A DNA stretch of 64,000 bases from Azolla caroliniana (Eukaryota > Plantae > Polypodiophyta): assembly GCA_043228905.1 (NCBI GenBank), contig JBHGNT010000009.1:18104001-18168000 (forward strand). The letters are read 5' to 3'. The position numbers and the translations under genes were made by a program. Below, in pieces: positions 3,878 through 63,893 of this stretch (position 1 is its first letter; every line of letters begins with the position of its first letter). Under the pieces are notes generated by a model. It was not told the origin of the DNA and searched no databases. It was given only the letters and a program-made list of their open reading frames with translations.

Positions 3878-3884
3878 CCCCCCT

Positions 3885-31936: not shown

Positions 31937-32149
31937 ACATATTTTCTCACCCTTCATCTATCCCCCTTCCTCATTCCTCTCTCCTTCCCCCTTACTACTA
32001 TTTACTAGTCACACACATCTCCTTTTTCCCCTTCCCTCCTATCTATAGTCCCCTATCATTCCCTCATATTTCACTAAAATCTCTCTCTCTCTCTCTCCCT
32101 CTCTCCCTCCCTTACTACTATTTTATATCTTCACTCATTCCTTCTCTCT

Positions 32150-32871: not shown

Positions 32872-32926
32872 GACCTTTTGCACTGATGAGCTCCAAGCGA
32901 GCGAAACTAGTTTGCTGCATAAGGTC
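32872..32926 (+). ncRNA. Type I hammerhead ribozyme
   Basis: CTGATGA at 32883-89. Stem II GCTC/GAGC, then GAAA, minimal palindromic stem III (ACTAGT) and a GUU triplet. Stem I is GCA/TGC plus GACCTT/AAGGTC. Confidence 0.85.
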
Positions 32927-32955
32927 TTTCCTTTCATTTTAATGAAAATTTCTTG

Positions 32956-33005
<50 letters not shown>

Positions 33006-33837: not shown

Positions 33838-34115
33838 AAAATTTGACAAAGGTTCGTTATCAACATCACTATTGTTATTATTTCATCTTGAGAACGAATT
33901 GCAAGAATCATATTGCCGATGTTGAACAATATTGAGGACTTTTTTATATAGAATGCGTAGACTTTATTTCTGCGAATTAAATTTGACAAAGGTTCATTAT
34001 CAACATCACTATTGTTATTATTTCATCTTGAGAACGAATTGCAAGAATCATATTGCTGATGTTGAACAATATTGAGGACTTTTTTATATAGAATGCGTAG
34101 ACTTTATTTCTGCGA
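33838..34115. repeat. ~140-bp direct tandem duplication
   Basis: AAATTTGACAAAGGTTC...TTTCTGCGA occurs twice. Confidence 0.9.
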
Positions 34116-34320
34116 GTATGTTATAACGATGCATAATCCCTTATGGTACATAACACACATTATGCAAAACCAGCTCATTAGTGCCATTTGTAAAAAAACG
34201 CACAGTGCCAATACCCTCAATGGAAGATGCATGATTGTTTCCAAGGTATACATGGGCCATGGTTGCATGCAGTAAACTAGAAAAACACTTCTTGATAGGA
34301 GTCACATGAGATCTTTGGAG
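34116..34320 (-). mobile_element. Copia protease-region relic
   Basis: VYLGNN..IEGIGTV..LHNVCYVP. Confidence 0.7.
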
Positions 34321-36489
34321 GTTTGAGCTAGAGAGAGAGAGAGAAGCCGCCAACTTAATTCTGAAGGGGAGCCCTTGTTTAAGATGTGTGTCTCTCAGTC
34401 CCTTAAGCCGTCAGAAAGGTATGGCCTTTCATTTCGCCTTACACCGACACAAAGGACTTCAATGCCAATACGTTGGAGTTTGAGAAGTGTCAGGTGGCTT
34501 TGGTGCATGAGAGATCTTGAGCATGACTTTGGAGAATAAGATATTGTTTGACCACCTCCTTCACTTCAGGAAAGAGTATCTAGATTACCTCAAAACCTTT
34601 TGGCCATGGTTATTCGGCACAATTCAATATTCTACATGTCGAGAAAAAGGGGGCTGATTTGTGTTTTTTCTGAAAGAGCTTATGATGGGACTAATTTGAT
34701 TCACAAGAATGAATCGATCCTTCTCAAAGATCAGTATGTTGGCCTAATGAATGGTAAAAAGCCTCCAAGTTTTGAAGAAAACAAGTTCATAGAATGAAGT
34801 ATTTGTTTACATAAGAACAATAGTAATGTTGCAACCACGAAGGTGTTGTCGCCTGCGGATGAAGATGCTGCACTTCATGCTCCGGTGAGCCTCCTTAAGA
34901 ATAATATCAAGGAAGAAGATGTGGATCATTACTTTTACATTTATTTTTCTGTTTTAGTTGACACTGTCAAAAGTCATTTCCATCCATTCTTAAAGGAATC
35001 TTTTGAACGTTTGTAGTTACAAACATGTTTGGAAACCAAAAATCTTATGGAATTTTTACCAGATTAAAAAAACAGAGTGCTGTAAAGCTGGAATGTGTTG
35101 TACCAAAAATTGCACTTCAATTCTTCGGAGGCTGAGAATTTGTCTTCTTCTCAAGCTGTATGCAAGAAGAACTTACTGGTTATCCCTCACTAAGCTGAAT
35201 GACATCTGAAACCAAAGATGAGTTGCTCATGTGCTGGAATCGAGCGATGGTGTTCAGTTTATCGACATTTTTCTAAAATAAAAGCTGTTAATGTATGAGA
35301 TGGCTTTACACTTTACAACGTGAAATATTTGACATGGTTTTTTACAAGCATAAACTGCAGGACTATTCCATATGGGTTGAATGGGTGGTAAGTGGATGTG
35401 GAATCTATTGTTTGTTGGTGTGGAGTGAGGCAGTGAGGAAGTAAACTGTTTGCATTTTGGGTGTCCTTGTGCAGATCATTGAATGTGAATGATGATCTCC
35501 ATGATCTGGTGTTGGGATGGCCTATGTGCACTCGCAATCTTTGTTAGCAGTTTTCCTTTTGACTTGCTTATTATTTACTCCCACAATGCCAATGGAGGCA
35601 CAAGCCGATGGAAGAAGTGAGTGATATGTGATTTCCTTTTGCATACCATGTGCCAATCAATGCCAATATTAAGTGTTGGTTCGTTTTCCTTTGTCTGATG
35701 GCGGTGTAGTGTATTCGGGAAGTGTGGGATACTTCTGTTGGATATTCGGGAAGCCTTGGCCTCTGCTCCTTGGAGGAAGATAGAAAGGCCAAGTTAACAA
35801 CAGGTTGAGAGAGAATTCATGGAGCTTCACTGTTGCCACAATCCAAGCTCGTGAAGAGAATCAACACCAAAACCTCTCATATATTGTGTGATTCTATTAC
35901 CCTAAAGTTTGGTTCCCTACTTTTGCCCACAAACCCAAAAGTGTAGAATATGCGTGGAAAGTTAGTAATATATGCACATTCAAATTCAACCTCGAACATA
36001 TATGGGCAAAATTAGGTCCGTTATGTAAAACCCTGCACAGGTAGGAACTGGTTTTGTGTATATTGACCATAGTGAAAGTTTTATCCACGCTGCCTATCAA
36101 AGTCATACATTATCATGTATGGGTCCAGCAATGGCACATCTCAATGGTCCTACATGTTCCTACATGTTTTATGTATAGCCTCGTTCTCTACCCTTAATTG
36201 CAATTTGGCATTGGAATCATGTGATTTGTACAGAGGGACATGCATATCTCCATGCCTCCATCATTACAGATATCCTTAATTGCAATTTGGCATCGGAATC
36301 ATGTGATTTATACAGAGGACCCGGGGCATTCATATCTCCATGCCTCCATCATTACAAATTGTATGTTGTCTGTCTTCTGTTGAATGCATGTCTCCATTCC
36401 TCCATCATTACACAACGCGTAATATAAATTGATTGAAATCATCCACGGTAAATAGAAATGGACAAAACATATTACGTTATTGTTATTAT

Positions 36490-37008
36490 TGTTCAATTTT
36501 CTTAGCCTCTCCTATCTGCGAGGTGCACCAGTCTTAATTTGTCCCTGCGATTATTTGGTAGTTAGAATTAGTTAAAATGAATAAAACAAGACTCATGCAA
36601 ACTTCACTAGATTGAACATATTTCGAACAATTAGAAAGCTGAGTTCTGAGCATACCTTGCACAAACCCACAGCCAAATCAGTAATTAAAGTATCTATTCC
36701 TGTGACAAGTCATCACAGTTCCCCAACCAGCCTGCTTCAACATCTTTACCCCCTCTATGCTCTCAAATACTGAACCTATTTTGGTTCACCTACCCATATA
36801 GCTTACATTTCAGTTATAAATAGGAATCGAAATCCCACTAAATTCTTGCGTATCTAGCAAAAATTGCCAAACATTACGCCAAAATCCACCAAATCCTTTG
36901 CAAATCTAACTATATATAATTTTCAAGAAAAATGTCATAAACTTGAGCCACCATTACCTTCAAAAGAAGTCCATCGCATGATGATTCCTTGATTGCCTTA
37001 AGTACTCT
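36490..37008 (-). pseudogene. ENO: Enolase 3' pseudo-exons, copy 1
   Basis: Exon 36958-37008 reads RVLKAIKESSCDGLLLK. The next exon is [17 protein letters not shown] and the last is GQIKTGAP. GT-AG flanks; frameshifts and stops present. Confidence 0.85.
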
Positions 37009-37016
37009 CTGCCCAC

Positions 37017-37051
<35 letters not shown>

Positions 37052-37196
37052 TATAAGTAAACATTAAAAGAAGTAATATAAGAAGGGGAAATGTGAAAAA
37101 TAGAACCTGTTACAACACGGATGGAAGGTTTATAAAGTGTCATTTAGACCATTTCCGTGGTTCTGATGGAAAATCAGGAGATAACACTCTCATATC

Positions 37197-41400: not shown

Positions 41401-41439
41401 TATATGAGTGTTGCCAAAGACAAAGACATATGAGTGTTG

Positions 41440-41760
41440 CTAGTTCCACTCTTTTGGTGGAGAATGGAGTGGCATAAAGCACACTTTACAACCGAAGCAA
41501 GACTGAGCCACAACTGAGACTTTGTTTTGTCGTTAAAATACCGGAACTCTACATTGACATTAGAAGCGCAGAGAGGGCATGGTGGAAATGTCCAAAGGCC
41601 TATCTTGAAGGTGTCCAAAACCTTGAAATGGGTACTGGTCATTGGTGTGGTGAGACTCTTTTTAAACCCGCCTTCAGCATTTAGGAGGATCACATCCAAC
41701 TTTGCCTTTATCGCCTCAATGATCGTCGTGCCATTTGTCTGCTGTTGCAGCTCTTGTAGA
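41440..41760 (-). pseudogene. Dof-like zinc-finger exon fragment (left hairpin arm)
   Basis: ELQQQTNGT..LLNAEGG..TPMTST..CPLCASNVNVEFRYFN matches 53593-54441. Confidence 0.85.
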
Positions 41761-41764
41761 ACCT

Positions 41765-42020
41765 TGGAGGCAATGTTGGATACAATCCTCCTAAATGCCG
41801 AAGGCGGGTTAAAAAAAGAGGCAGACCACACCAATGACGACTACCCAACTCAAGGCTCTAGACACCTTCTTCAAGATGGGCCTTCCGACATCACCGCCAT
41901 GCCCTCTCTAGGCATCTAATGTCAATGTAGAATTCCAATATTTTAACAAAAGAACAAAGTCTCAGTTCGTTCAGCCTCACTTTGGGTTGCACAGTGTGGC
42001 TGCAACGTTTCTGGTCGACT
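41765..42020 (+). pseudogene. Dof-like zinc-finger exon fragment (right hairpin arm)
   Basis: LDTILLNAEGGLKK..FFKMGLP..ASNVNVEF..VQP, frameshifted. Confidence 0.85.
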
Positions 42021-44091
42021 TCTGGTGATCATATACATATATTCTTCACGTCAGAGGGTGGGGATTCTTGTTCTTGCAATTTCTTGCTTCTTCTGCTCAT
42101 TCGTTTCCTTCTCTCATGTGCAAGGGTTTGAGACTCTACACCCATGCTAGACTCTGCTACAAAGATTGTTTGGTTTTGTAAAGCTGTTGATGCAAAAGCC
42201 GAGCAGATGTTGTTCTATTTCCCTGAGTTTCTATAGCTCCATGGGAAGGCAATATCTGACTGTGTTTTCTTTTCTAGTTATGCAAAACGTGTTTCTGAGT
42301 ACTTCGGATGTGTGAAAAGAAATAAAATCAATTGAATTGAATTTAGTGGATGCTTCTTCACAATTTATGCCAATATCAATTCAACTCTGAAGGCACACTT
42401 TCATTTCTTTGTCTTCTTCTTACCTAGAATGGCCAAATGCAGATCAGAGAACACATACAACAAGAAGAAGGCCACATTACTCTAATTATGATTACAGTGA
42501 TTAGGGTTATCAGTACTCCACAAAGAAAAATTCTTGTAACTCAGATTGCCAGTTATGAAGTTATTATTATTATTATCATTATAGGTTTCTTGGATCACAC
42601 ACAGTGGTGAAGTGACCATTGCGAGTCCTCACAGATATGATAGAGCTCTCCTCGGATCAAGAAAGAAGGATTGTACAACCAAAAGAAGATGGGCAACAAC
42701 CCATTCATGGATACGTAATGGTGGACATGGGAGTGAAATGTCACTATAAACCAATATATCCATAATCCAAGCAGTTCCACAAATGCATATGTAACAAGTG
42801 AGGTTGGAATCATTCACTATTTTAAAGACTAGATGTCAGATTTTCCTTCAGCCTTTAAGGTATAAGTCACACTATCATATTTTTGTGACAGCTTCAAAAC
42901 TATGTACCAGGTTTTAGTTGTAGAGCATATGTTATTGTTTAAAACCCTCTCAAGGGGTGGTAGAAATAAAGGACCTTTGATCTCTCCCACATGAACTTGA
43001 ATCCATAATAGCATTATACACCATATGAAACTTAAACAATTTTTGCAAGTCTGGGTTCCCAAAAGTTGTTAGTTTCCCTATTCGGTAACGAGAACGATGG
43101 ATGGCAAAATAGTACCTCAAAGCACGTCCCCTCCTTAAAAGTGTGATTAGCACCAACCTTATCAAGCAAAACATACTTTGGCATTTTGTCCCTAGGACAT
43201 CAAACCAAGGATATAGGCACGTTGTACCTAGTTCTAAACCATATGAATGAAGGTTGTGGAGGTGAATATTTTGTAGTTGGTTGACGAGTAGAAGAGAAGT
43301 AATAATCTGATGCACAGATTCATCAAACAGAAACGCATTATTGGTGGAGGCACAAGCTACAAAAAAAATCTCTCAAACACGATGAAAGTGCCTAGACATG
43401 CATCACAACACTTGAAAAGGGAGAGAGGTCATCAAATAAGCCAATAGTACACATGTGGGCATGTTGGAATGCATTAGGTTGCATATTCCACCACATAAAA
43501 TAGTTCTATCAACAATAATATTTGATCGATCAAAGTGTAGACTACGTAATAATAGTGTGAGTGCATTAGTTTGTATATTTGGCCACCAGATAATAGGATT
43601 GAGAATGAAGATATGACAAAAGGGCCATATAATTGTTGCATAAACCAACTGCCATCACTTCATGGATAGTGATAGGCCCAAGCAACCCATCCCACTCCAT
43701 GGCCATGATGACTAAATGCATAGTCTAAGTGACATATTGTATCTAGGATGAAAATTTTAATGGAAGATTGGATCAATGCAACTGAATTGAATAAATCAAT
43801 ATGCTAACATGACCCCATTCCTTCTTATTGATAGTCCAATGTGATCTACCATACGTGCATTCACATTTGAGAATGATTCAATGAAACGTGTATGGTAAAT
43901 CATCTCAAAGTTGGGAAAAAAATAAAGATTGGAATTTCAAAAAATTCACTATGGTCTATCTTATATATTGATTGAATCAAATGTCAACACAATTGAAAGT
44001 TCAAAACCTAGGAATTACTTAACTACTAAATATTAGAAAGCACGAACATAAAAATCATATAATTCAAAGACATAATTGTATTGATGATGAG

Positions 44092-46448: not shown

Positions 46449-49299
46449 TTACTATTGATCGATCAAGCCAAGTGCCTTTCTTCTTCAAATGGATACAGTT
46501 GTTGATCTCCTAAACCTACCTGCAGTATGATCCTCCTCACGTCAAGAACAAATCCACGCATTAAACTGTACATGACACACACACACACGCACACACACAC
46601 ACACACAGACAACTTGGAGGTCTACTAACTCCTCCATGATTTACCAAGCTTGTCCTCGCGACTTGACTTACGCAGAAAACTCTTTCAGTCTTATTTGCAT
46701 CACAAGTGTCTCCATAAGACTATTGGCTTCGGTTTCAGAGAAGAAATTAGTTTTGAGGGTACAATTGGAGGACCAAGAACTTGATTTTGCCTTTGCCTGA
46801 ACCTGCAGAACCAGCTTTCCATCACTCGTGAACGTGAAATCTCCTGCAGCACTTTCTACTCACTTCTTTTTCCCAATGCTCAACACTATTTCGCACGAAT
46901 TCAACGGAGTGATTAAACGAACCTTCCCATTTTCTGCAACATAAAGATGGATGTAAATATCTTCTTCTTCTACTTCTGAATGAGATTATCTCAAGCGCAT
47001 CAAGTCTAACAAGCTCTACTTCCCCATCTCCTGTGACAAGGTATTGTCCTTTGTACCATCTTTTGGATAAACCCCAACGGAAGCCTGAAGTCTTGATCTT
47101 TCTCGCTTTTCTCTCATTGAACCTTCGATGTTTTTTTTGTTCCTCTTATTTTTCAGGTCCATTTGATTTATTCATCTTCTTATAACATCGCTTTTCTACG
47201 CGTGGATAAAATACTGTAAGTAAAAAACAATTCCTTTTCCCTCCGTTCATTATCTGTACAGGAAATCTCCGTTCGTGTATTACTACAAGTCAAAATTTGA
47301 GTTTGGGAAGTTTCTTTGATTTATCTCTTTACATTCGGGTGATATTGTTTGTGGAGTTTTGGACAAAACGTCGTTTTGATTCATCCAATCAGAGGCATTT
47401 CAAGGATTTTCGTTTTTGGCGTTCATTGATTATTCGAGAAAAATTTCTTTTGAAAAATCTGTTTGATTTTTTTCTCATGTTATTTTGTGGAGAGTATGTT
47501 CTCATTGAAGATAAAGACACTCGTTTGAGTTTCTTTTCATATGATTTTTCTTTTGGTAATGTTCATGCTTTACTCCCAATCAAAATTTGGTCCAACCATT
47601 CCTTTGCATCGTATTGTGGAACTCCGTTTTTCTTTCATATGAAAAACTAGGGAAATTCGTGTGTTCATGCATGCCATTCTGTTTATGGATGTTCATCCGT
47701 CCAAGACATCCAAAGGGGGACATATCAAGGATTCTCGTTTTGCTATTCATTTAGTGTGAGTAAAGTCCGTTTGATTTGGTCCTCTTTATCTATTTAGACT
47801 AGACATCAATCAACATCCCTTTGGTTCATCCAAATTGCACTAGTTTAATGATAAGCATATTGTGGAACTTCATTCTGCCCCCAGAAGATGATCTCCTTGG
47901 AGTACCATCTTATCACCTCTAATATTTAGTGTCTTTAGCTGTTAGGAGGATTTTCCTAATCTTGAACTAAATGTCATTAACCAATAATTAAAAAGGAACA
48001 AATGATTATATTCAATTTCATAGAACGTTCAAACGATAGAGTAAAGTGGCATGTCTCTTGCATCCTGACATGGAGAACCTCAATGCTAAATGATTAAGCA
48101 AGGTTTCTAGGGCTAGGCACCTCTACACCGACATTGTAAGGCTATTTTATGTGTTGCTTTTCTGAATAAAACATGGATTTTTTAGTTGCGTTGAAGGTCA
48201 ACAATGACGTGTTGTATGCCTTTGATGGTTTGTATAAACCAAGAACTTTGATATCTAGGAGACAACAAGATATTATGCTCTTTCTGTCTAACATTTCTGG
48301 AGTTTGGGTATTTAATATTTGCTGTTACTAGAAATCCATAGGTTTTCAGATTATTGTACCATATCATTTATGCCTCCAGTCTTCCTAGCTTGTGCATATA
48401 CTTGACCCTCAGCCTCTATGCTAAATAATCAATGAAAGAGTGGAAAATTTGTTCCTTGTACGTGATGTTTATGCAACAGGAATAACTCATTTGTTGGTTA
48501 AAGAATCATTTGTTAGTAAGGATCATTGTATGTATGCCTTCATTCTTCCTAGTTGTATCAATAAAAGGTCATGTCATCTATTTCTTTTAACATCCAGCAG
48601 ATCAGAAATGTGGCCTTTTTGTGCAACATTTTTGAAAAACGAGTGACTACTAATGTCAACATTAAATGCGTAACTGGTATTTTGCTCTAATGCCTGTATT
48701 TTTTGTTGCATTCAAATCTTTTGAGCTTGGAAAACCACAAGCTGTAGCTTTTGTGCTGAAGGATAGCATGTTCGTGTCATAATAAAGATAGAGAGAGAGA
48801 GGGAGAGGGAGAGCGATGGAGTAAATACCATGTCTATATTTCATTAATGACTTAAAGGGAGGTTGTTGACCACATGTTTGTTACTTGCTCGGTTCATCTA
48901 TTTGTAATTTGCAGACAAAGTGTGCCCCTGTGAAAATGTTTTTTGGATATGGGGCTGAATGGTTGTCCCACTTGTGGTAATATGTTCCTGTATGGGACTG
49001 GGACGGGGATTGAATGGTTGTTCTTTGGTTGAGTATGCTATCATTTGAGCCGGCTCACGCACATTTTTAGGGATAGATGTCATGGTTTAGCAATTATATG
49101 TAATGACCAAGAATGGAATCATTCAAGGGCATGATAGATGTCGTGTCTAGCCCATGTTGAAGTTCAAAATTAAGAGACTCAACATGTTGGTGGCAGGCCG
49201 TCAATTCTTTGTTGAAGATAATTGAGAACCAAGGAAACACTCCTTTTCTGACTTATTTAAGAATGGAAGTCTCGTGTTTTCTATCCACAGAAATATAAG

Positions 49300-50910
49300 T
49301 ATTGGAAATACATATATTACCTTATAGAGTAATGGTCCATAGTACGTAATATACTTGAATGCATTGGCAAACATTCTTTTTCATTCGAATGCAACCGAAT
49401 GTGTATGATACAACTTTCCCACAAAGAGATGGGCTTGAAAGGTTCTTTTGGCAAACCATGGACTAGATTATTACATTGTAATGTTTTTAGAGCATTGAAA
49501 TGCATATGGCCTAGACGAAAGTGCAAAAGAGAAGAAAGAGAATGAAGATTGGTTAAAGATATGGATGATTGTATTGGGGTAGAATGATGTGCATCTAAAT
49601 GAGAGATATAGAAATGCATTTTATGGGATATAATCCTCATTTGCAACAAGTTCTAATAAGTTCTGCATTTGTGGCTTTGTGTTTAGTAATAGCATGGTTA
49701 GAATTAAATTCAATGATAGTACCATTTGTGGTTGCTTGACTAACCAATAACACGTGTTTGGTGATTCCTGGGACATAGAGAACTTCATTGATTGTGAAAT
49801 GTCTTGCTAATACCTTGTTGAGTCCCATTGTTACCAAATCTTACTATGATAGGGGGTTGAGCTTCAGTATAATTATATAACCAATCTTTTCCATGAGTTA
49901 AGTGGTTAGTAGCGCCAATGTCAAGATACCATATGTCATTTTTTCATCGCTTGGATTTGGAGTCGTGATGGGAAGTGATTTGACAGTGAATGCTTGAAGA
50001 ACATCGTCATACTTGTCACCAGTTTGATATCCCTCTCTTACGTCTTTATCATCATTCATTTCTTCTTCAACAAGATGGGCTTGTACATGCCTCCAAGGTT
50101 GACATGCCTCCAAGGTTGATAATTCTTGAAACTTGACTTTGAGCGCCAATCTTTTGTTGTATGATTAGTAAGTTTGCATATTTTATAATAGGTATTGTTG
50201 AATCACATTCCTTCTAGTTTAGTGTTTTGATCTTTCTTTATCCATGGCTTTGAGCTTTCTCTTCTTTGGTTGAACCTTTTATTTTTGTATGCTATCATTG
50301 CCATGCTTGGAGTTGAATTTGAAGTCCTTTGTGAACGCATTATTTCTTCCTATCTAATATTTGCAAGAAGATCAATTAAAGTTGAATAGTTTATAAAGTT
50401 TTGGGTGGTTCGGACGGTGGGCCGTGAGGGAGAAAGAGCACCAAGAAGGAGAATCTTTTGTAATTTACCATGGATTTCTAATCCCGAAGTTAACACATCA
50501 TCGAATTTCTTTTGCCATATTTAAAGAAATTCACCAACCGGTTGTTCGTCAATCATTTTGTAATTGACGAGTGCTTGAAGTGTATGAGCTCGTTGGGCAT
50601 CGTTTTTTTTGTTCGTCGATAGTTTGCAAATGCTTTCACATTTCTTGGGCCATCTCCATTTTTCGCACGTTTTGCTGATGCCGTCACTTACGTGCATTAG
50701 AATTTCCATTCTTGCGCATAGGTCTTTTTCCTCATATTCTTTAAGTTCTTCTCCTTTTTCAGGTTTTGTTGATGATCTTGAAATTATGTCCCATAGTTTA
50801 TTATATTTAAAGAGTAATTCTAATCTTCCCTACCATATTCGATAATTTGTGTCTGACAGTTTGTCGATTGTAAATTTTCACATGTTGGGTTGCGACGATG
50901 ACATGGATTG
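49300..50910 (-). mobile_element. Highly degraded Copia relic (gag to GAG-pre-integrase)
   Basis: LYVPGIT..LLVSQ, LHFRLGH..VHGLP and NYRIW..LWDII motifs. Confidence 0.7.
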
Positions 50911-51823
50911 TGCATTTATTGCAGAGGATTGTCTGGATTAGTGCTCGGCAAACACAAACTTGACTTTCGTTATTTGTCAACTTTAGACACTACAAATATG
51001 ATTGTTTTGTATGGTAATAAGAGTTAAATTATGATAAGGGCATGTGTTTTATGATTTTAGAAAGGCACATGCTATAGTTTACAGGTTGTTAACATTAACC
51101 TAGGGCTGGTTCTAATCTCAGACTAGTTTTGCCACCTGCCCTGTGTTAATGTTAATAAGGCGAAGATAAAAAAGAACACAGTGTGCCAGGCGATGGACAT
51201 GAGCAAGTAAATTCTACACATCAGAGGGTGGAGATAGTTGGACTTGCAATTTGCTTCCTCAGTGATCACACATTCAGTGGAAGCGATCACATGCTGCTCG
51301 GTTTTGAGACAATTAGACCAGAAAAACAAGACAGAATAATTTTTTACCCGACGAAAACTAGAAAGAGAATATTCTACGGTCCAAAGAAAGAGAAAAAATG
51401 AAAAATAAGAAAACGAGTGCATCGCAGCCGTTGAGAAAAAACATTTCTAGAAAAATAAAAGGACGGCATCCAGCCCATCGAAGCCGTGCGCCGTCGGATG
51501 GACGTCAGGATCCAACGACCCACGATTGCTTACTTACAACGCAAACTGTCTTCTGCCCATTTCCTGACAGAGAAACATCAGTTGCAAGAATTTCGAACAC
51601 ACAGAGAGAGAGAGAGAGCGCGAGAAGGAGCTTTGAACACCATCGCCATCCTGCTCAACCCATTGAACAGCAGTTGCCTTGTAGGGTAAGGAGGAACCAA
51701 CATTCTTATATGGAAATGATAATTACCTGCAGAATCCTACCTTATCAATCGTATACTAGTTAGTAGGTGGGACATCACCTTCACCTGCCTCGGCTTCAAT
51801 TGACGATCAATCCAACCCAGACT

Positions 51824-54441
51824 ATGGTTGCTGCTAGCGTGGGCAGAGATACCCAAATCAGTCGTAATGATGAATTCGCAGGATTATTATTAGATGAGAA
51901 GGAGGTGGAAGACTTCCAACAGTTGGTGCTTCAATTGCTCCACCAAACAGAAGAAGATCAATCAATCAGAGCTGACTCCTTGGAGCTTCCCATCACTTCA
52001 ACCTCCGACGACAATGTGGACTTATATGCAGATGAGCTGGAGCAATTACTGCTCCTGCATCAGGAAAATCAAGAGATACCTGAACCTCTGACATCCGCAG
52101 GTCAATTAGGAGCTTCCAATATCAGTCGATGTGTAGGAGTAAAAAAGTAAACAAGTTTCTGAATCTTTTTGGGATGATAAAGCTGTAGAGGGTTCCGCAG
52201 AAGCTCCCGTCACATCTTTCTGCGACAATTATGCAGAGGAGCTGGTCATCATGCTTGATGAGGATCACGAAATACTTAAAGATATTCCTGAAGATTCTTC
52301 AGCTCCCAGCTCAGCAGGTGAATTGGGAACTTCTGCTTTCCCACTCTGTTAATATATTGCATGGACTCAATACCTAAATCATTTTCTAACTTATATCATG
52401 ACGCTGCAGCTGGTTATACAGCGCCTCCCAGGACACCATTTTCTGACAATTATGCAGAGGAGCGGGATCTTGATGAAGATCATGAAAGAATGGAATGGAG
52501 TTATGAATATCCTTCAGCTTGGACATCAGCAGGTGAATTACTAGCTTCTGCGCATAAGTACAACCTCAATCAATATGCACAAATGACTAAATAACCTCCT
52601 CCTAACTTATATGTAGATCATGAAGCTGCAGCAGGTTCTACAGAGCCTCCCATCATATCATTTTCAGAAATGTATGCAGAGGATCTGGAGCACCAATTAT
52701 TGCTCCTACTTGATACAGACCATGAAATAATCAAAGGGAGTTCTGAATATCCTCCGTCAACTACATTAGCAGGTGAATTAGTAGCTTTTGCTCATAATGG
52801 CAATGTCAATGTAGCGCATCAATGAATTGATTACATAACCATCTAACTTATATTAGATCGTAAAGCTGCAGCTGGTTCTACAGAGGCTCCCATGATACCA
52901 TTTGCTGACAATTTTGTAGAAGAGCTAGGGCATGATGAAGATCACGAAAGAATTGAATGGAATTATGAATATCCTCTAGCTCCGACATCAGCAGGTGAAT
53001 TGGTAGCTTCTGCGCATAAGCACAATACGAATCAATATGTGCAAATGACTAAATAACCTTCTAACTTATATTTAGATCATGAAGCTGCAGCAGGTTCTAT
53101 AGATCCTCCCATCACATCATTTTCAGATATGTATGCAGAGGATCTGGAGCAGCAATTACTGCTCCTTCTTGATGAAGATCATGAAATAATTGAAGGGAGC
53201 CCTGAATATCCCCCATCAACTACATCAGCAGGTGAATTAGTAGCTTCTGCTCATAACTAAAATGTCATTATAGTGGCATCCATAAATTGACTACATAACC
53301 GTCTAACTTATATTAGATCGTAAAGCTGCAGCAGGTTCTACAGATCCTCCCATCACATCATTTTCAGATATGTATGCAGAGGATATGGAGCAGCAATTAC
53401 TGCTCCTTCTTGATGAAGATCATGAAATAATCGAAGGGAGCCCTGAATATCCTCCATCAACTACATCAGCAGGTGAATTAGTAGCTTCTGCTCATAACTA
53501 AAATGTCATTATAGTGGCATCGATAAATTGACCACATAACCTTCTAACTTATATTAGATCGTAAAGCTGCAGCTGGTTCTACAGAGGCTCCAATGAATAA
53601 TGCCCAGGATGATTTTATACTTGCAGAGCTGCAGCAGCAGACAAATGGCACGGCCATCATTCAGGAGATGAAGGAAGAGTTGGATGCCATCCTGCTAAAT
53701 GCTGAAGGCGGCTTGAAAAAGCGGCTCATGACGCCAATGACCAGTACCCAATTCAAGGTTCTGGAGGCCTTCTTCAAGATGGGCCTGCCCACGTTACCAC
53801 TATGCCCTCATTGCGCGTCGAATGTCCAAGTAGAATTTCGATATTTTAACAACCGAACGAAGACTCGGTTGGTTCAGCCTCGCTTCAGCTGCAAGGTGTG
53901 CTTCACACCACCCCATTCTCCAGAGAAAGACTGGAACCAGCAAAAGCAGGAGGAGCATGTGAATAATAGGAAGAAGCTGGAGTTTACGCTTCACCAAGAG
54001 GAATTGGAAATGCTGGCTGGTGCCTGGGGAGGGCTTCATGCGCTGGTGCAACGTTTCTGGTCGATGCCACATGCCATCGAAGTTCTGGAGGCCAACAAAT
54101 TTATCCCGTGTAGCAGCCGCCACTGCAAGTCTGAGAGTCCAACCAAGTCATCGCCAAAGAGGAAGAGGAGATCGTGGGAGTCGAAGCAGGTCAATGATGG
54201 TGGTACTGCTCCTGAGAATGTGATGGATCGTCAATTGCCTCTTATGAGAGATCATCATGATGAGCATATGTTGTGGATGGAATCTTTTAATTCCATCATC
54301 GCAGCAGAGAGGCTAGGTAGTTCTGCTGCCTATACCTCCAGCACTACTAATCCTAACAATAATGATAGTGATTGGTATTATGATTACTATATGAGTTGGA
54401 ACAATCTAAACAATAACAACATTGCTGCTTTCACTTGGTAA
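51824..54441 (+). CDS. Divergent Dof-like zinc-finger protein with acidic exon repeats, ~647 aa; exons 51824-52100, 52189-52317, 52410-52532, 52632-52772, 52872-52994, 53091-53231, 53332-53472, 53573-54441
   Basis: All introns are GT-AG and phase 1, and most carry a CTAAC branch point. Internal exons are 129/123/141/123/141/141 nt and stop-free. The last exon has CPHC..FRYFNN..QPRFSCKVC. Confidence 0.78.
51960..53600 (+). repeat. ~220-240-bp exon+intron tandem array, about 7 units
   Basis: Recurrent AAGCTGCAG..GGTTCTACAGA and CATCAGCAGGTGAATT. Confidence 0.92.
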
Positions 54442-55700: not shown

Positions 55701-55967
55701 GTTATGAGGTAAATAAGCCTAAAAATGAAAAAAAAAAAACACAAGAATGTTTGAATAACATTCGCATTCGTTTTCCAACGTAGGAAAACGAATGTTATGT
55801 TAGACGAACACGTATTTTACGTAGTATGAGTCGGAGTATTTATAGATTTATATTTAGTTTTGACAAGAAGGGAATGATTGGATTAGACTTAGTCCAACCT
55901 ATGAAGGGTCTTGGTAGTTGGAATAGTTGGGGATCAGTAATTGATTATCTAACGTTATTCTTATTAT

Positions 55968-56273
55968 TGTTCAATTTTCTTAGCCTCTCCAATCTGCAAG
56001 GTGCGCCAGTCTTAATTTGTCCCTCCTATTATTTGGCAGTTAGGATTAGTTAAAATGAATAAAACAAGACTCGTGCAAACTTCATTAGATTGAACATATT
56101 TCGAACAATTAGAAAGTTGAGTTTACCCTGCACAAACCCACAACCAAATCAACAATAAAAGTATCCATTCCTGTTTCTCCACTCCTTTAACTAGTCATCA
56201 CAGTTCCCAACCCAGCCTTCTTCAACATCTTTACCGCCTCTCTTCTCTCAGATATTGAGCCTATTTTAGTTCA
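55968..56273 (-). pseudogene. ENO: Enolase 3' pseudo-exons, copy 2
   Basis: Paralogue of 36490-36790 (GQIKTGAPCR, KKAGLG). Confidence 0.75.
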
Positions 56274-56384
56274 CCTCCACATATAGCTTACATTTCAGTA
56301 ATAAAAAGGAATCCAAAACCCACGAAATCCTTGCATATCTAGCAAAAATTTGCCAAACATTGAGCAAAAATCCACCAAATTCAC

Positions 56385-59300
56385 ATGCAACCACCATCAC
56401 ACCCCTCTATTCAGCCTCTGTGCCGGAAAGAGCGACAATCAGTTGCCTCTTACTGCTCCATGATATTGCTCTGTTGCTGATGGAGAAAACAAAATACGGA
56501 TGTCGATCGTCTAATGGTGCTATAACTGGCCAAGTCGTCATCTATGTACCCTTCGAGTCAAATTGGCTATAGAGAATGTCGTAGTCCATCGTTCCACTCA
56601 CATATCGTACCATTTGCTTACCACGACAAAGGTTTCTTCATAGTCGACTCCATGTGTTTGTGCATATGCTTTTGCTACGAGTCGGGCTTTATAGCGATTG
56701 ATAGAGCCATCAACATTATGCTTCACCTTGAATATCCCTCTACAACCGATTGCCTTCTTGTGAGGTGAGTGGAGGACGAGATCCCATGTCTCATTCTTAG
56801 AGAGAGCTTGCATCTCCTTGTTCATCGCCTCAATTCATCGCGGATCTTTAGTGGCTTCAGTAAAGCTCTCCGGTTCACGAACAACTACTACCTTCATCAT
56901 AAAGGCATAATGGTATGCCATGTAATCGTTATAGCCGAATCGACTAACTGGGTTCTTTTCTTGGGTGGAGCGACGAAGTTTTTCGTTTGTTGTGGCAATA
57001 GCTTTCTTCACTACACTGTCCTCATGATAGGCACATCAAAAGCACCAAACTCACTGTCGAGTGAGTCACTTGATTTATTGCCTTCATATTGTTTGTCTTC
57101 ATATTCTGGCATTTCGGTCTTCCCTTTGCCCATCTTTGGACTTGGCGAGATGTGCTTTGGTCGCTTTGAGGCTCTTGTGGTCTGCTCAATCTGATATGGA
57201 GAGACCTCTGCATCAGTATTGACCTTAGTCGATCATCATCTTCAGTGTCATGAAGGTCGACTGGAAAAGGTTCAGGAGGAATTGGTTCAGGTTCGTATCA
57301 TAATGCCGATTGGCCAAAGACTAGATCTCGGCCTACGCGAACCTTCAGAGTAGAGGGGTTGTTTACTCCTTTTTCTACAGTGAGTATCGTACGAGGACAC
57401 ATTTATTCAACTTGGGGTCTAGGGTTTGCCGTTTTTTGTTGGGGATGTGATGTATGCATTAGAGCCGAATATCCTTACATGGGATATATCTTACTTCTTT
57501 CCATAGTACTTCTCATGAGGGGTGACCTTGTGCACATCGGATGTTGTACATCGGTTCATTAGGTAGACGGCAGTGCATGCTGCTTCGGCCCACTATGACT
57601 TCGACATAGGCTTCTCGTTCATCATGGTCCGCGCTACTTCGAGGATGTGTTGTTTTATGCATTTGGCCTCTCCATTTATACCGATTTAGAGCCATTAGCA
57701 TTATGCTTCACCTTGAATATCCGTCTACAGCTGATTGCCTTCTTGTGAGGTGAGTGGAGGACAAGATCCCATGTTTAATTCTTAGAGAGAGCTTGCGTCT
57801 CCTCAATTCATTGCGGATCTTTAGTGGCTTCAGTAAAGGTCTCTGGTTCATGAACAACTACCACCTTCATCACAAAGGCATAATGGCATGCCATGTAATC
57901 GTTATAGCCGAATCGACTAACTATGTTCCTTTCTTGGGTGGAGCGAAGAAGTTTTTTATTTGTTGTGGCAATAGCTTTCTTCATTGCACTGTCCTCATGA
58001 TAGGCACATCAAAAGCACCAAACTCATTGTCGAGTGAGTCGCTTGATTTGTTGCCGTCAGATTGATCGTCTTCATATTTTGGCATTTCGGTCTTCCCTTT
58101 GCCCATCTTTGGACTCGGCGAAATGCGCTTTGGTTCCTTTGAGGCTTTTGTGGTCTACTCAATCTGGTGTAGAGAGACCTCTACTTGAGTATTGACCTTA
58201 GTCGATCATCATCTTCAGTGTCATCAAGGTCGGCTAGAAAAGGTTCAGGAGGAGTTGGCTCAAGTTCGTACCATGATGCTGATTGGCCAAAGACTATATC
58301 TCTGCCTACGCGAACCTTTTGAGTACACGGGTTGAAGCATTTGTACCCCTTTTTCTCTAGTGAGTATCCTACAAGGACACATTTCTTCAACTTGTAGTGT
58401 AGCTTTTGCCGCTTTTCGTTGGGGATGTGCACGTATGCATTAGAGCCGAATATCCTTACATGGGATAGATCCGACTTCTTTCCATAGTACTTCTCATGAA
58501 GGGTGACCTTGTGCACATAAGATGTTGTACATTCATTCATTAGGTAGACAACAATGCATGTTGCTTCGGCCCACTATGACTTCGACATATGCTTCTCGTT
58601 TATCATGGTCTGTGCTTTGAGGATGTGCCGATTTATGCAATTGGATTCTCCATTCTGTTGTGGTGTATGTCAACACTAAAATTCACATCGGATTCCTTCT
58701 TGTCGAATGTATGTCATGTATGCATCGAAGAAGTATTCCTTGTCTCCATCTGACTAAAGCCATCGTACATGCTAGCCGGTTGTTTTTTCGACTTCGCTTT
58801 TGAATTTTTGGAAGAGGTGTGTGAACACTTCGCTCTTCTACCTCATGGGAAAGATCCAGATGTGCATGGAGAAGTTGTCGATGAGAGTGATGTAATATCG
58901 ACAGTCGCCGAATGTAGTCGTTTGAGCAGGTCCCCGCACATATGAGTGGATTATGTCCAATACGCCTTTGATCACATTTCGTTCTTTTGGAAATGGGTGT
59001 TGATGTTGTTTGCCGAATTGGCAATCTTCACATACATCTTCAATCTCTTTCTCTTTGAAGGTCAGGAACCCGATGACAATACCTTTTGATTGCATCCCTT
59101 TGAGCTTTTGGAGGTTGATGTGGCCTATTCTCTTGTTCCACAACTCTATGTTTGTGTCGGCTTTGAGGCCCTTTACAAACATCGCCGATTTTACATCGTT
59201 TGGCTTGAGGATAAACATTCAGCCCTCCCTTCAACCACAAGCGGTGAGTCGGCCTTCCTTCTCAATGAAGCAACTACCTTGGTTGAATCGGACTTACATA

Positions 59301-60660
59301 CCTTACTCAGACCAATTTCTTCGTTCTGGTCGGTACGTGCAAGACGTTTTTGATGCAAGTTTACTCGCCTTCTTTCCCAAATGGGCCATTGCCGAATGTG
59401 TAGTTTCATCTCCGGTCTCGACATAGCCGAGTCGATCCGACTCTCATAGGTTTCAGAACCAATCTTGATGTGACATCATATGGTTTGATGCACTAGAGTC
59501 GACAAACCATACGCCTTCTGGATTAGAGGTGTTGTTCGGGCCGGAGGCCCACATAAAATTCACTCTATGTCTCTTTACGAAAAATTCACCATAATTATTG
59601 TATTTAGAGGAGTTGACATTATTGGTGAGTTGCTAGCTTGTAGAAGCCTACTCACGCTTCCTCTTTCGGCACTCTTCTTCGTGGTGGCTGATTTTACCAC
59701 AATATCCACAATCGATTGAGTTGTTTTCTCAGCTTAGTCCTACATGGAAGCCCCCCCTTCTTTCGAACGTTCCTCTTCAGTTTACACCGTCTTGCCGGTA
59801 ATGGGAGTTGTTTTCATAGGTTGAAGCTCGTCTTCCTCGTCCTTGGCCGAATTGGCCTCTTCTTGCATGGTCGTGTTCTCTTCCTCCATCCGCGTGTGTA
59901 GAGCATGTGGCCTTCTAAGGCGTTGCTCCTTGTTCGTACAGGATTTTCTTCAACCGACAACATTGATTGAAGATCCAAGAAAGAGGGAGGATTCTCTCTT
60001 GCTAGGACGATGGTTCTCATCGTACCGAACCATGGTGCGAGATTGTCTAGGCATATTTGCACCATCTTATCATCCTCCACATTGACGCTTATTGGGTCAA
60101 GTGAATCACAAAGCTCCTTGATCTTCAAGGTGTAGTTTGTGATGGACATGGCCCTTTGAAGCTTTCTTGTAATTTTGTTGGCCGTAAAAATCGTCTGTTG
60201 ATTCTTCCACGCTTCCTTCAACGTCTTGGCTTCTCAAATGTAGCCGAGCATGTGGTCATGGACACATGTCTCCAAGCAATACATTACTCGACTTGTTGCT
60301 TGCTCCCACCCATGTTGAGTTGTCAGCATCCTTAGGGTCACGTTTGTTTTCATGGGGTCCTTTGATATAGCTCCAATAACCTTGGCCGACAAGGTATTGG
60401 TGCATATATCAACTTCTTGTTAGGGAGAGAACTACCCATTTGAGTACTCATTATGTCGATGCACATTTACTTGTTGTCGTTTTTCTTCGTCCTTAGACAC
60501 GAACTATGTAGTGGCACTACTCTAGAGGATAGCCAAATTTGTCGTCGGTGTATCGAACACACAATCACTATGAGTGGGGTGGGCTTAGTATATATGCTAA
60601 ATCACATGCTCTAATAGCATGTAAATAATTAGCTAGAGTAATTATGTTATGTGAAATAGA
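56385..60660 (-). mobile_element. Degraded Copia, paralogue of 26977-30045, with an internal ~1-kb tandem duplication
   Basis: SWSSKRQ, KARLVAK and LWNKRIGH motifs. 56690-57680 is repeated at 57685-58650. Confidence 0.85.
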
Positions 60661-63595
60661 TTAGAGATGTGTATGTTAAAGAGGAATTGAACCTTGTCAA
60701 GGACGAAACGATGTGGGTGGTCGACTCCAAAATGTCATTTCACTTGACCCGTGACCGGAAATGCTTCTCATCATACACAACCGGAGACCACGGTCTTGTG
60801 AAAATGGGAAATGAAGGAGCACGTCAAATCATTAGCATAGGAGGCGTGTGTTTGATGGTATCACTCGGGTGCAGATTGGTATTGAAAAATGTGCAACACG
60901 TTCGAGAGGTCAAATTGAATCTCATATCGGCCGGTCGACTAGATGATGAAGGCTACATGAGTAGCTTATTGAACGACACTCTAAAATTCTTCAAGGGAAT
61001 CCTGATTGTGGCCCGAGCTCAGAAGACAAACACATTGTATTTGATGTATGCTCGATTATGCCGAGAGGAAGTAAATGTGGCAGTCGACACAACCGAGGAG
61101 TTGTGGCACAAGAGGCTATGCCATATGAGTGAGAAGGGGATGCAAAAGTTTGCCGAGGATAACCTCATTTCGGAGGTGAAGAATGTGCAACTTGATAAGT
61201 GTACCGATTGCTTGGCCAGCAAGCAAGTAGTACAGAGCCTCTTTTCGATCCATGCCCCCAAAGACGAAGAAGATGTCATTGGAACTCACGCATACAGATA
61301 CATGTTACGTAGATACAAAGTTTCATGTTCGGTCACAATAGTTTGTGACCGTTATAGACGACTGTAGCCGAAAGTTGTGGGCTTCCATATTGAAGACCAA
61401 GGACCAGGTGTTGTCGGTCTTCAAGGAGTTCCAAGCGAGAGCCGTCAGAGAGACCGGCCGGAAATTGAAAGCGGTTCGAGCGGATAATGGAGGTGGATAT
61501 CAAGGGCGATTCAAAGAGTACTGTCGTTCGAAGGGAATTCGGCTCGAATACTTCGTGCCGAAGACTCTAGAGCTTAACAAGCTAGCCTGAGAGAATGAAC
61601 CGGACCACAACGTGTATTATTGAAAAAGGGAGGGTCTTTGTAATGGCTATTGGGGCTATGTTTTTGCGAAAGAAAAGAAAAGGAAAAAATTTGACTTGAA
61701 AAGCCCTAAGTGCGCAGCTTGATTAAGTGCACACTTTTCCCTTGCGTTCAAAGTGTACCGAAAATTGCACTTCAATTCTTCGGAGGCTGAGAATTTGTCT
61801 TCTTCTCAAGCCTTGTGCATGCATGTATGCAAGAAGAATTTACTGGTTATCCCTCACTAAGCTAAATGACATCTGAAACCAAAGATGAGTTGCTCATGTG
61901 CTGGAATCGAGCGATGTTGTTCAATATATTCTCATGGAGTGGATATTAGAACTTGGGTTGTCTCCTGTGCTGGAATGTCAGTTTATCGACATTTTTCTAA
62001 AATAAAAGATGTTAATGTATGAGCTGGCTTTACACTTTACAATGTGAAATATTTGACATGGTTTTTTACAAGCATAAACTGCAGGACTATTCCATATGGG
62101 TTGAATGGGTGGTAAGTGGATGTGGAATCTATTGTTTGTTGGTGTGCTGGAGTGAAGCAGTGAGGAAATAAACTGTTTGCATTTTGGGTGCCCTTGTGCA
62201 GATCATTGAATGTGAATGATGATCTGGTTTTACACAACGAACCTATCAATTGACCATAGTGAAAGTTTCGTGTATATTGACCATAGTGAAAGTTTTAACC
62301 ACGCTGCCTATCAAAGTCATAAATTATCATGTATGGGTCCAGCAATGGCACATCTCAATGCTTGAATAAATTGACCTGTTCCTACATGTTTTATGTATAG
62401 CCTCGTTCTCTACCCTTAATTGCAATTTGGCATTGGAATCATGTGATTTGTACAGAGGGACATGCATATCTCCATGCCTCCATTACAGATATCCTTAATT
62501 GCAATTTGGCATCGGAATCATGTGATTTATATAGAGGGCCCGGGGCATGCATATCTCCATGCCTCCATTACAAATTGTATGTTGTCTTTCTTCTGTTGAA
62601 TGCATGTCTACATGCCTCCATTACAGAACACGTAATATAAATTGATTGAAATCATCCACGGTAAATAGAAATGGACAAAACATATTGCAATGATGCCTAC
62701 TTCACAGCCTTACAGCATGACATAAATCAGTTGGTAGCTTCCAGAGTAAAAACATATAAAGAGACAAATCAGAGGTGAATTAGGACTACATTGTTCAAAT
62801 TTGGATTCAAACAAGGCCTAATACACAGCCTTCCTATTGAGGCTTCTCTCCCTTTTGTATACATAATTAACACAAAAAAATGGATCAAAAAATACCATTG
62901 GTTTTGATAGTTATTTAGGGCAACACCATCAATTTTGCCTGTTATTTAATTTAATGCTAGTTTTACTAGCAATCCGTTAGGCTAAACTTGAATCAAAGAA
63001 TGATCCATCGGGAGCATATCGTCCACTTCCAGTAATTTATTATACAACGTTATTGTTCTTATTATTCAATTTTCTTAGCCTCTCTGATCTGCAAGGTGCG
63101 CCAGGCTTAATTTGTCCCTGCTATTATTTTGCAGTTAAAATTAGTGAAAACGAATAAAATAACACTCACACAAACTTCAATAGATTGAACATTTCGAACA
63201 CTTAGAAAGCTGAGTTTACCATGCACAAACCCAGAGCCAAATCAGCAGCAATAAAAGTATCCATTCCTGTTTCTCCACTCCTGTGACAAGTCATCACAGT
63301 TCCCCAACCAGCCTGCTTCAACATCTTTACCCCCTCTATGCTCTCAGATACTGAACCTATTTTGGTTCACCTACACATATAGCTTACATTTCAGTTATAA
63401 ATAGGAATCGAGAGCCCACTAAATTCTTGCGTATCTAGCAAAAAATTGCCAAACATTGAGCCAAAATCCACCAAATTCTTTGCAAATCCACACACACAGA
63501 GAATATAAGTAAACTTTGAAAGAAGTAATATAATAAGGGAAATGTGAAAAATAGAACTTGTTACAACACGGATGGAAGGTTTATAAAGTGTCTTT
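56620..63595 (+). repeat. Segmental duplication of ~26977-37140
   Basis: Collinear blocks (Copia -, Copia +, unique spacers, enolase exons), roughly 90-95% identical by eye. Confidence 0.88.
60661..61600 (+). mobile_element. Tnt1-like Copia fragment, paralogue of 30046-33365 without the PLE
   Basis: Near-identical translation, continuous through AVRETGRKLK. Confidence 0.88.
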
Positions 63596-63893
63596 TAGAA
63601 ACTAATAAGGTGTCTATGTATTTAACGTGTGTGAACATTAGAATATATTGAAACAACTAAGAGCTTGTCTCTTGGGTTTGTCACACTTTTAGCGTTGGGT
63701 TTGTGACCAAACGATCAATCTCCAACAATCTGGACTTTTTCACCAACTTGTGCAGTGAACTTGCTGTAGTGCTCCCAATCATCTTTGGTCAAATTGGTCT
63801 TCAATTGACCCGATCGGATACTGCTCAATGAAGGACTTAGTACAGATCAATTCAATTGATCTCCAGTTATATTTTGGCTGCCATTACTGTTCT
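63062..63893 (-). pseudogene. ENO: Enolase pseudogene fragment, copy 3 (includes the upstream IED..DWEHY..VQIVGD..VTNP exon)
   Basis: Frameshifted enolase C-terminal motifs (HRSGET, GQIKPGAPCRSERL). The RV.KAI exon is deleted. Confidence 0.85.

What the first reader, a model, noticed from the sequence alone, without database searches (positions are those of the whole stretch)
51824..54441. Dof-like factor built by serial amplification of symmetric acidic exons
Seen: six internal exons come from one exon+intron repeat unit. All are phase 1-1, multiples of 3 and stop-free, while stops fall in the introns. Two types alternate (A 123 nt with EWxYEYP; B 141 nt with LEQQLLLLLD) in the order A-B-A-B-B, and exon 1 holds two more degenerate copies. 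Several acceptors have in-frame alternatives (TAG 15 nt upstream, CAGCAG). Known: Dof genes usually have 0-1 introns, and acidic Leu/aromatic-rich motifs are typical activation domains. Inference: a lineage-specific transcription factor whose activation strength could be tuned by repeat number or exon skipping. The six-frame ORF track shows only pieces of it.
Basis: partly seen in the sequence, partly recalled or inferred. Interest (0 to 1): 0.8.

Follow-up and report, generated by a model that had tools for sequence, protein, structure and literature searches.

The report
Fern Dof-like gene with amplified exons
A plant (likely fern) gene in which one short exon-plus-intron block was copied six times in tandem, so that it is predicted to encode a string of acidic segments that likely recruit co-regulators, placed in front of an unusual Dof-related zinc finger; related copies carry two to seven such blocks, but splicing and function are still untested.

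Summary
The structure is real.

Eleven related metagenome loci share the unit; complete arrays hold 2-7 internal exons. The frame is under selection: 47 of 48 exons are 3n versus 28 of 53 introns, and intact copies show 0 stop gains against about 6-11 expected. The repeat amino acids drift almost freely (dN/dS about 0.7), while the finger domain is conserved (0.19).

The finger is not a canonical Dof: CX2CX25CX2C, no RYW after the last Cys, Pfam score under cut-off. It belongs to an unnamed Dof-related family whose named members are all ferns.

Five of six repeat exons match a published RCD1/TAF4 RST-binding motif, and B repeats pass an activation-domain predictor. Most likely this is a lineage-specific transcription factor with a multivalent co-regulator-binding arm. 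No RNA run was listed, so splicing, skipping, DNA binding and tuning are untested. Verdict: new variant of a known kind, moderate interest.

The parts
51824..52100 (+). Exon 1: conserved ATG, 92 acidic codons, one clear repeat copy at 51983-52097, phase-1 donor GTCAAT
   Evidence: homologous exon 1 in 6 loci; diverged exon-1 peptides
52189..52317 (+). Exon 2, type C2 repeat, 129 nt, phase 1-1, motif DNYAEEL
52410..52532 (+). Exon 3, type A repeat, 123 nt; the TAG at -15 is deleted here, so CAG is the first AG
52632..52772 (+). Exon 4, type B repeat, 141 nt, motif EMYAEDL
52872..52994 (+). Exon 5, type A repeat, 123 nt, motif DNFVEEL
53091..53231 (+). Exon 6, type B repeat, 141 nt, motif DMYAEDL
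53332..53472 (+). Exon 7, type B repeat, 141 nt; its unit is 97% identical to that of exon 6, the youngest duplication
52101..53572 (+). Span holding seven GT-AG phase-1 introns (88, 92, 99, 99, 96, 100, 100 nt); six have a CTAAC branch-like motif 21-27 nt before the CAG
53573..54441 (+). Exon 8: partial repeat, finger domain, basic motif, aromatic/acidic tail, stop
53671..53988 (+). Fern-type Dof-related domain: predicted helices, CX2CX25CX2C finger (53803-53901), late KKLEFT strand (53971-53988)
54154..54171 (+). PKRKRR, nuclear-localisation-like basic motif (label from general knowledge); a P[KR][KR]x[KR][KR] form is in 23 of 23 aligned family proteins

Best explanation
This is a tandem array of six exon+intron units in an open-frame gene model that is likely spliced and translated into a lineage-specific transcription factor, whose acidic repeat arm is predicted to bind co-regulators multivalently while a non-canonical Dof-related zinc finger would anchor it on DNA.

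Shown: the array, its symmetric phase, its descent from one unit (C, A, B clades; AB pair, then B duplicated), differing unit numbers in related contigs, and purifying selection on frame and finger.

Inferred: unequal crossing-over between units adds or removes whole 3n exons without breaking the frame. Each exon brings one D-x-Y-x-x-(D/E)-L motif, and B exons add an acidic Leu-rich stretch. These would bind RST/alpha-alpha-hub or Mediator-type co-regulators, with avidity scaling with copy number.

Untested: splicing, skipping, DNA binding, activation.
For: Frame selection: 47 of 48 internal exons are 3n and 46 of 48 are also stop-free, against 28 of 53 introns 3n and 2 of 53 open if retained. 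Hand-counted indel events (3n: non-3n) are 9:1 in exons and 6:13 in introns, Fisher p=0.005, or 0.014 on a stricter count. Stop gains in intact loci: 0 seen against 10.7 expected (6.2 on terminal branches only), P=2e-5 and 0.002. GT is kept at 47 of 48 internal donors, and an in-frame AG at 0 or -15 is kept at 33 of 33 scored acceptors of intact loci.

Finger domain dN/dS 0.19, p=9e-14 against neutrality. The window copy shows no CHG hypermutation (2 of 53 sites), unlike broken copies (15 and 18 of 53).

Residues 1-358 have net charge -75. 37 tiles pass equation 1 of PMC10550315, at aa 15-100 and 256-354. The motif (DE)X1-2(YF)X1-4(DE)L as written in PMC7767404 matches 21 of 27 distinct exons of intact loci, 2 of 11 in damaged or doubtful loci, and 7.7% of shuffled units. 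Precedent for allovalent repeats of this motif: ANAC013 (PMC11811731).
Against: Repeat dN/dS is near 1: A about 1.0, C about 0.8 and exon 1 about 0.8 (none significant), B about 0.5, pooled about 0.7. Pairwise dN is close to intron divergence. The motif descends from one ancestral unit, so its copies are not independent, and the regex of PMC6908617 read literally matches 0 of 38. A and C exons mostly fail the activation-domain rule. The finger lacks R-Y-W after the fourth Cys, residues needed for DNA binding in CDF2 (PMC9477738), and the Pfam score is under cut-off. Several relatives are broken: L007 and L010 (stops), L012 (1-nt deletion), and one L005 exon is frameshifted. The related loci are short-read contigs at coverage 1.4-5.5, so some unit counts may be mis-assemblies.
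Confidence: 0.6

Rival explanations
1. The gene is spliced and translated, but the array is a tolerated by-product. Symmetric exons expand and contract by drift like a minisatellite, selection keeps only the frame and rough acidity, and copy number has no tuned effect.
For: dN/dS of A, C and exon 1 is not different from 1. Near-identical loci differ from 2 to 5 units (L009 against L004, L006, L008; flanks 96-98% alike). The family has many decayed copies.
Against: B exons are constrained (dN/dS about 0.5, p=0.008), and the Leu run changes little on the tree. Activation domains can keep function with little sequence conservation (PMC13004512, abstract only).
Confidence: 0.25
2. The protein does not bind DNA. 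It acts as a decoy or scaffold that soaks up RCD1/SRO or TAF4-type hubs through its repeated motifs, with the finger serving protein contacts.
For: The canonical R-Y-W is missing after the fourth Cys. P0009 and P0010 join a B unit to the tail with no finger.
Against: The finger is the most conserved part (dN/dS 0.19) and keeps FRYFNN, QPR and CK. A late basic K-K-L-E-F-T strand falls inside the range aligned to the DNA-bound CDF1 structure (low Z).
Confidence: 0.08
3. The repeat exons are not used: the locus is a young pseudogene, or only exon 8 is expressed from an internal ATG.
For: Exon 8 has in-frame ATGs before the domain. Broken family members are common.
Against: Frame and stop tests on the repeat exons. 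The first exon-8 ATG is TTG in L002-L006, L008 and L009. The exon-1 start is conserved in diverged paralogues. No CHG signature in the window copy.
Confidence: 0.07

Closest known systems
Canonical Dof transcription factors (Pfam PF02701; CDF1 Dof domain, PDB 8XUF)
   Same: CPxC...(F)xY(F/Y)NN...QPR(F)xCKxC core; Pfam E 9e-6 over profile positions 6-34; 8xuf_D aligns over 44 of 51 residues, 34% identity, Z 2.9, rmsd 3.4.
   Different: Spacer of 25 not 21; no RYW directly after the fourth Cys; 26-residue insert before a late F-T strand; extra conserved helices before the finger; finger lies C-terminal to a 390-residue acidic arm; 7 predicted introns.
Unnamed fern Dof-related proteins (Ceratopteris richardii KP509_38G041000, KP509_39G002600, KP509_04G056200; Adiantum capillus-veneris GOP47_0006642; A. 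nelumboides L7F22_069139, L7F22_007257)
   Same: Helical extension plus CPxC-x25-C with invariant V-x-FRYFNN-x2-K-x4-Q-x-R-x2-C and a late F; best distant hits.
   Different: About 30% identical in the domain only; their fourth ligand is not CxxC (a later C or H); no acidic repeat arm (0-1 predictor tiles); all named 'hypothetical'.
ANAC013 and DREB2A activation regions with RCD1-binding motifs
   Same: Acidic region with (DE)X1-2(YF)X1-4(DE)L-type motifs; ANAC013 uses two nearby motifs allovalently (PMC11811731); a DREB2A splice variant drops the motif (PMC10796322).
   Different: No homology. There are two motifs there, up to about eight here, one per symmetric exon. Binding is measured there and only pattern-matched here.
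Tandem duplication of symmetric exons (general mechanism, recalled from textbook knowledge)
   Same: Phase 1-1, 3n exons duplicated together with an intron.
   Different: Here the module is a short disordered acidic segment of a plant transcription-factor-like protein, not a folded domain. Searches listed no such case by title or abstract.

Membership tests
Dof family | CX2CX21CX2C finger spacing (PMC9477738) | tested here: not met
   CX2CX25CX2C in the window and in 22 of 23 aligned family proteins
Dof family | Pfam PF02701 gathering score over the domain | tested here: not met
   26.1 bits against 26.6, profile positions 6-34 of 59 only; close relatives score 24.2-29.2, on both sides of the cut-off
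Dof family | K, R, Y, W around and after the fourth Cys, needed for DNA binding (CDF2 K166, R170, Y171, W172) | tested here: not met
   K kept (CKVC); FTPP follows instead of RYW
Dof family | Dof fold, with the late F-T strand standing in for the Y-W-T strand | tested here: inconclusive
   AF2 model pLDDT 74.7 with three strands; 8xuf_D Z 2.9, rmsd 3.4, 44 aligned, ranges 46-118 and 50-94; second model Z 2.8, rmsd 2.8, 43 aligned; both tied with unrelated rows
Dof family | Binds (T/A)AAAG DNA | not testable with these tools
   needs EMSA or DAP-seq
Unnamed fern Dof-related family | Helical extension + CPxC-x25-C with FRYFNN and QPR | tested here: met
   spacer 25 in 17 of 17 proteins printed; 15-16 invariant columns
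Acidic activation domain | 39-aa tiles passing the charge/WFYL rule (equation 1, PMC10550315) | tested here: met
   37 of 609 tiles, at aa 15-100 and 256-354; none start at aa 63-255
Acidic activation domain | Activates a reporter when tethered | not testable with these tools
   needs a GAL4-fusion assay
RCD1-RST-binding motif (RBS/RIM) | Consensus pattern in an acidic region | tested here: inconclusive
   Matches the form in PMC7767404 (7 sites in the model; 6 if R/K are barred) but 0 with the regex of PMC6908617 read literally; chance rate about 8% per unit
RCD1-RST-binding motif (RBS/RIM) | Binding to an RST domain | not testable with these tools
Symmetric-exon tandem duplication | 3n, same-phase exons that share descent together with their introns | tested here: met
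Symmetric-exon tandem duplication | Junctions seen in transcripts | tested here: inconclusive
   no RNA holder listed

The most novel reading that the evidence does not exclude
A fern lineage has built a transcription factor from an undescribed Dof-derived DNA-binding domain plus a genetic 'valency dial': each symmetric exon carries one co-regulator-binding (RST/Mediator-type) motif, so unequal crossing-over and exon skipping set the number of docking sites, and hence regulatory strength, in whole-number steps between alleles and isoforms.
Probability: 0.25. Interest if true: 0.75.

Novelty: new variant of a known kind. Interest (0 to 1): 0.5.

Why it matters
If expressed, it is a natural dose series (2-7 modules) for asking whether activation-domain or hub-binding valency is tuned by copy number and splicing, a question so far studied with two-motif cases such as ANAC013. 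It also flags a conserved Dof-derived domain family in ferns that surveys requiring a complete C2-C2 finger would tend to drop (such a filter is described in PMC13161181), and whose DNA specificity is unknown. If the repeats merely drift, it is still a clean example of how symmetric exons let a coding array change size without breaking the frame.

Tried and rejected
RNA evidence: no RNA holder listed. The two runs offered were guessed RNA, contigs only. Laid on the window and on L006 they gave 3 and 9 short diverged pieces and no joint at a predicted exon boundary; one piece ran from an exon on into its intron. Uninformative.

Spliced protein search with a repeat profile, longer proteins: 17 hits, all ENA genomic-style ORFs, none with joined repeats. 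Only 7993 candidates were scored, so this is weak.

No own genome is held, so copy number per genome is unknown. ESM Atlas gave no usable feature hit; by structure, two Dof-labelled clusters appeared under the naming bar. Foldseek on PDB: no match at E<=0.001 for either model. PDB sequence search: CDF1 only at E 0.27; nothing relevant with the close-family profile. Pfam found nothing credible for the repeats. Earlier scan notes: nothing.

Idea that the TAG at -15 is the true acceptor because CAG is often lost in relatives: not upheld. Most CAG>CAA losses are in broken copies with CHG hypermutation. The acceptor choice stays open; the candidates at -15, -6, 0, +3 and +12 are all in frame.

Idea that the introns are decayed coding repeat: rejected; they collect non-3n indels, and only 2 of 53 are open.

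A transposon carrier was considered. Flank homology runs about 8 kb around the gene, which fits orthology or segmental duplication; element ends were not searched for. No complex prediction was run, as no partner was held.

Literature: 10 searches listed no paper on this family. The paper for 8XUF was not held. No supplements were read, and fern genome-paper supplements could list these genes.

Full report
1. Observation. The region holds a tandem array (TRF period 241). Splicing at GT-AG sites gives eight exons and a 647-aa open model. The six internal exons are 129, 123, 141, 123, 141 and 141 nt, all phase 1-1 and stop-free. The seven introns (88-100 nt) are AT-richer, and each would stop the frame if kept. 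Six introns have CTAAC 21-27 nt before the CAG. The order is C-A-B-A-B-B. Exon 1 has one clear extra copy and a trace of another, and exon 8 begins with a partial copy.

2. Relatives. No own genome is held. A protein search gave 11 relatives, all from ENA assemblies. A scan of metagenome contigs gave 12 loci from 136 pattern matches. L001 starts at the last intron; the other 11 contain the repeat unit. In the six with exon 1 through the last exon, internal exons number 4 (L002), 5 (L004, L006, L008), 7 (L005) and 2 (L009), against 6 in the window. L004, L006, L008 and L009 are 93-98% alike over long stretches, and L002 and L006 share upstream sequence with window 46.6-48.9 kb. They are therefore likely alleles or orthologues of one locus related to the window's. 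These are short-read contigs at coverage 1.4-5.5, so some counts could be mis-joins. L007 and L010 are broken (stops, 30-nt deletion in the finger), and L012 has a 1-nt deletion.

3. History of the array. A tree of exon+intron units separates C1, C2, A and B (bootstrap 100 for A and C1, 96 for B). The window's last two B units are 97% alike, the two A units 85%, and A against B 74-78%. The simplest reading, which is inference, is one unit, then an A-B pair, then duplication of the pair, then of B, by unequal crossing-over.

4. Are the exons real? Exon borders in relatives were set by splice-site profiles from the window, not by open frames. Of 48 internal exons, 47 are 3n and 46 are also stop-free. 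The exceptions are one A/B chimeric exon in L005 and one stop in broken L010. Of 53 introns, 28 are 3n and 2 are open if kept. Indel events, counted by hand from the alignments, are 9 in-frame to 1 out-of-frame in exons and 6 to 13 in introns (p=0.005; 0.014 on a stricter count). Neutral simulation on trees of the intact loci expects 10.7 stop gains (6.2 on tip branches) and none is seen. L007, L010, L011, L012 and the frameshifted L005 exon were left out of that test. GT is kept at 47 of 48 internal donors; the one TT donor (L002) has an in-frame GT 24 nt on. So the frame is under selection, which implies splicing and translation in at least part of the family's history. The window copy lacks the CHG-type C>T excess of the broken copies (2 of 53 sites against 15-18 of 53).

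5. What is selected. Codon models give dN/dS 0.19 for the finger domain (p=9e-14), about 0.5 for the tail (p=0.002), about 0.5 for B (p=0.008), about 1.0 for A, about 0.8 for C and exon 1 (not significant), and about 0.7 for all repeats pooled (p=0.012). The data are few and recombination between units is likely, so these values are rough. The repeats keep frame and acidity but little exact sequence. This fits a disordered activation region (PMC13004512, abstract only) and fits drift equally.

6. The finger. Pfam Dof scores 26.1 against a cut-off of 26.6, over half the profile. The spacing is CX2CX25CX2C and the R-Y-W that CDF2 needs for DNA binding (PMC9477738, passages and section 10) is absent after the last Cys. 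A profile search of 1.84 billion representatives gave 21 hits: close-family pieces, plus nine proteins about 30% identical in the domain that share a helical extension, the 25-residue spacer, FRYFNN, QPR and a late Phe. Those with a species name are from Ceratopteris and Adiantum. A domain-profile search gave 22 hits, of which 5 carry species names, all ferns (capped at 7993 candidates). The window's organism is therefore likely a fern, by inference. The AF2 model has helices and a three-stranded sheet whose last strand is the late K-L-E-F-T. The CDF1-DNA structure 8XUF aligns over 44 of 51 residues with ranges in register with that strand replacing Y-W-T, but at Z 2.9, tied with unrelated folds. 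A second family member gave Z 2.8 with a two-residue shift. It probably works like a Dof, but it is not a member by the defining features.

7. The repeat arm. Residues 1-358 have net charge -75. The rule of PMC10550315 (passages) passes 37 of 609 tiles, in exon 1 and the last two B repeats. Five of six internal exons, exon 1 and exon 8 each match (DE)X1-2(YF)X1-4(DE)L, the RCD1-RST-binding motif as written in PMC7767404 (passages). With R/K barred, it is in 21 of 27 distinct exons of intact loci and 2 of 11 in damaged or doubtful ones, with a 7.7% chance rate per unit. The regex printed in PMC6908617 (passages and section 9) matches none if read literally. All copies descend from one motif, so this is a lead, not proof. 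Precedents are the two allovalent motifs in ANAC013 (PMC11811731, abstract and passages) and a DREB2A splice variant that drops the motif, which binds RCD1 and TAF4 RST domains and Med25 (PMC10796322, abstract and passages).

8. Mechanism. Most likely (0.6): a spliced nuclear factor in which the finger binds DNA and the acidic arm presents several co-regulator docking motifs. Symmetric exons let recombination, and possibly skipping, change their number without breaking the frame. Rivals: a tolerated drifting array (0.25), a non-DNA-binding decoy (0.08), repeats unused (0.07). Shown: anatomy, descent, variation among contigs, selection on frame and finger. Inferred: splicing, activation, motif function. 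Untested: everything at RNA or protein level, since no RNA holder was listed.

9. Novelty. Symmetric-exon duplication and multi-motif activation regions are known (the first recalled, the second cited above). The combination, and the fern Dof-related family, were not listed by ten searches of the held library (listings only, apart from the papers named). Most subscription papers and all supplements were not seen. I also saw passages of PMC9897228, PMC13161181 and PMC5005469; they did not confirm the general '0-1 intron' claim beyond a 2-exon/1-intron CDF clade. Verdict: new variant of a known kind, interest 0.5.

Noticed in passing
window 41437-42082: Two broken copies of the finger-coding part of exon 8 lie back to back in inverted orientation (79% to the gene), followed by a 45-nt piece like the gene's upstream region. 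Database ORFs P0057 and P0011 look like the two arms (by eye), and a contig of run X1 shows an opposite-strand joint, so this inverted relic seems to occur in other material too.
   Followed up: partly
L007 and L010, last exon: Broken copies show strong C>T/G>A excess at CHG sites (15 and 18 of 53) but not at CG (1-2 of 29), likely a methylation scar. It explains their new TAG stops and CAG>CAA acceptor losses.
   Followed up: yes
L002 3586-3684, L004 2815-2913, L005 1170-1268, L006 4550-4648, L008 2511-2609: In the intron before exon A, the CTAAC branch-like motif (now CTACC) and the CAG acceptor (now AAG or ATG) are both lost while the TAG at -15 is kept; possibly a coupled shift to the upstream in-frame acceptor.
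   Followed up: partly
L002 3353-3444: Donor GT is TT; the only GT in the intron lies 24 nt on, in frame, so a rescue donor is possible.
   Followed up: partly
L012 213-311, L004 2575-2673; proteins P0079-P0081: A few 99-nt introns are open in frame, so retention would insert 33 residues without a stop.
   Followed up: no
proteins P0009, P0010 (relatives of window 53332-54441): A B-type unit runs on into the C-terminal part with the whole finger missing: finger-less derivatives.
   Followed up: no
window 51685-51763: A 17-codon upstream ORF (51710-51763) and a GGTAAG donor-like site at 51685 in the leader; relatives L002 and L006 have a short tandem duplication here.
   Followed up: no
L003-L006, L008, L009, end of last exon: A 2-nt insertion near the end gives an earlier stop (DYYI instead of the AAFTW end); L002 lacks it.
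   Followed up: no
proteins P0064, P0069, P0070, P0101 (distant family members): Some distant members end in an LxLxL (EAR-like, label recalled) motif, others in an acidic hydrophobic tail, suggesting both repressors and activators in the family.
   Followed up: no
window 2177-31936: Dense retroelements judged by eye from ORF translations: LINE-like 2177-6641; an LTR element with repeats at 7963-8387 and 13069-13493 (98.8%); one with repeats at 15645-16063 and 25025-25443 (99.8%, very young); copia-like pieces at 14115-15446 and 30041-30625.
   Followed up: no
window 48900-51150: About 2.2 kb with copia-like coding remnants sits between flank segments that are much closer together in L002 and L006: a likely insertion upstream of the gene.
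   Followed up: partly
window 26980-37148 and 55935-63599: Long duplicated blocks (85-96% alike) between these two regions.
   Followed up: no
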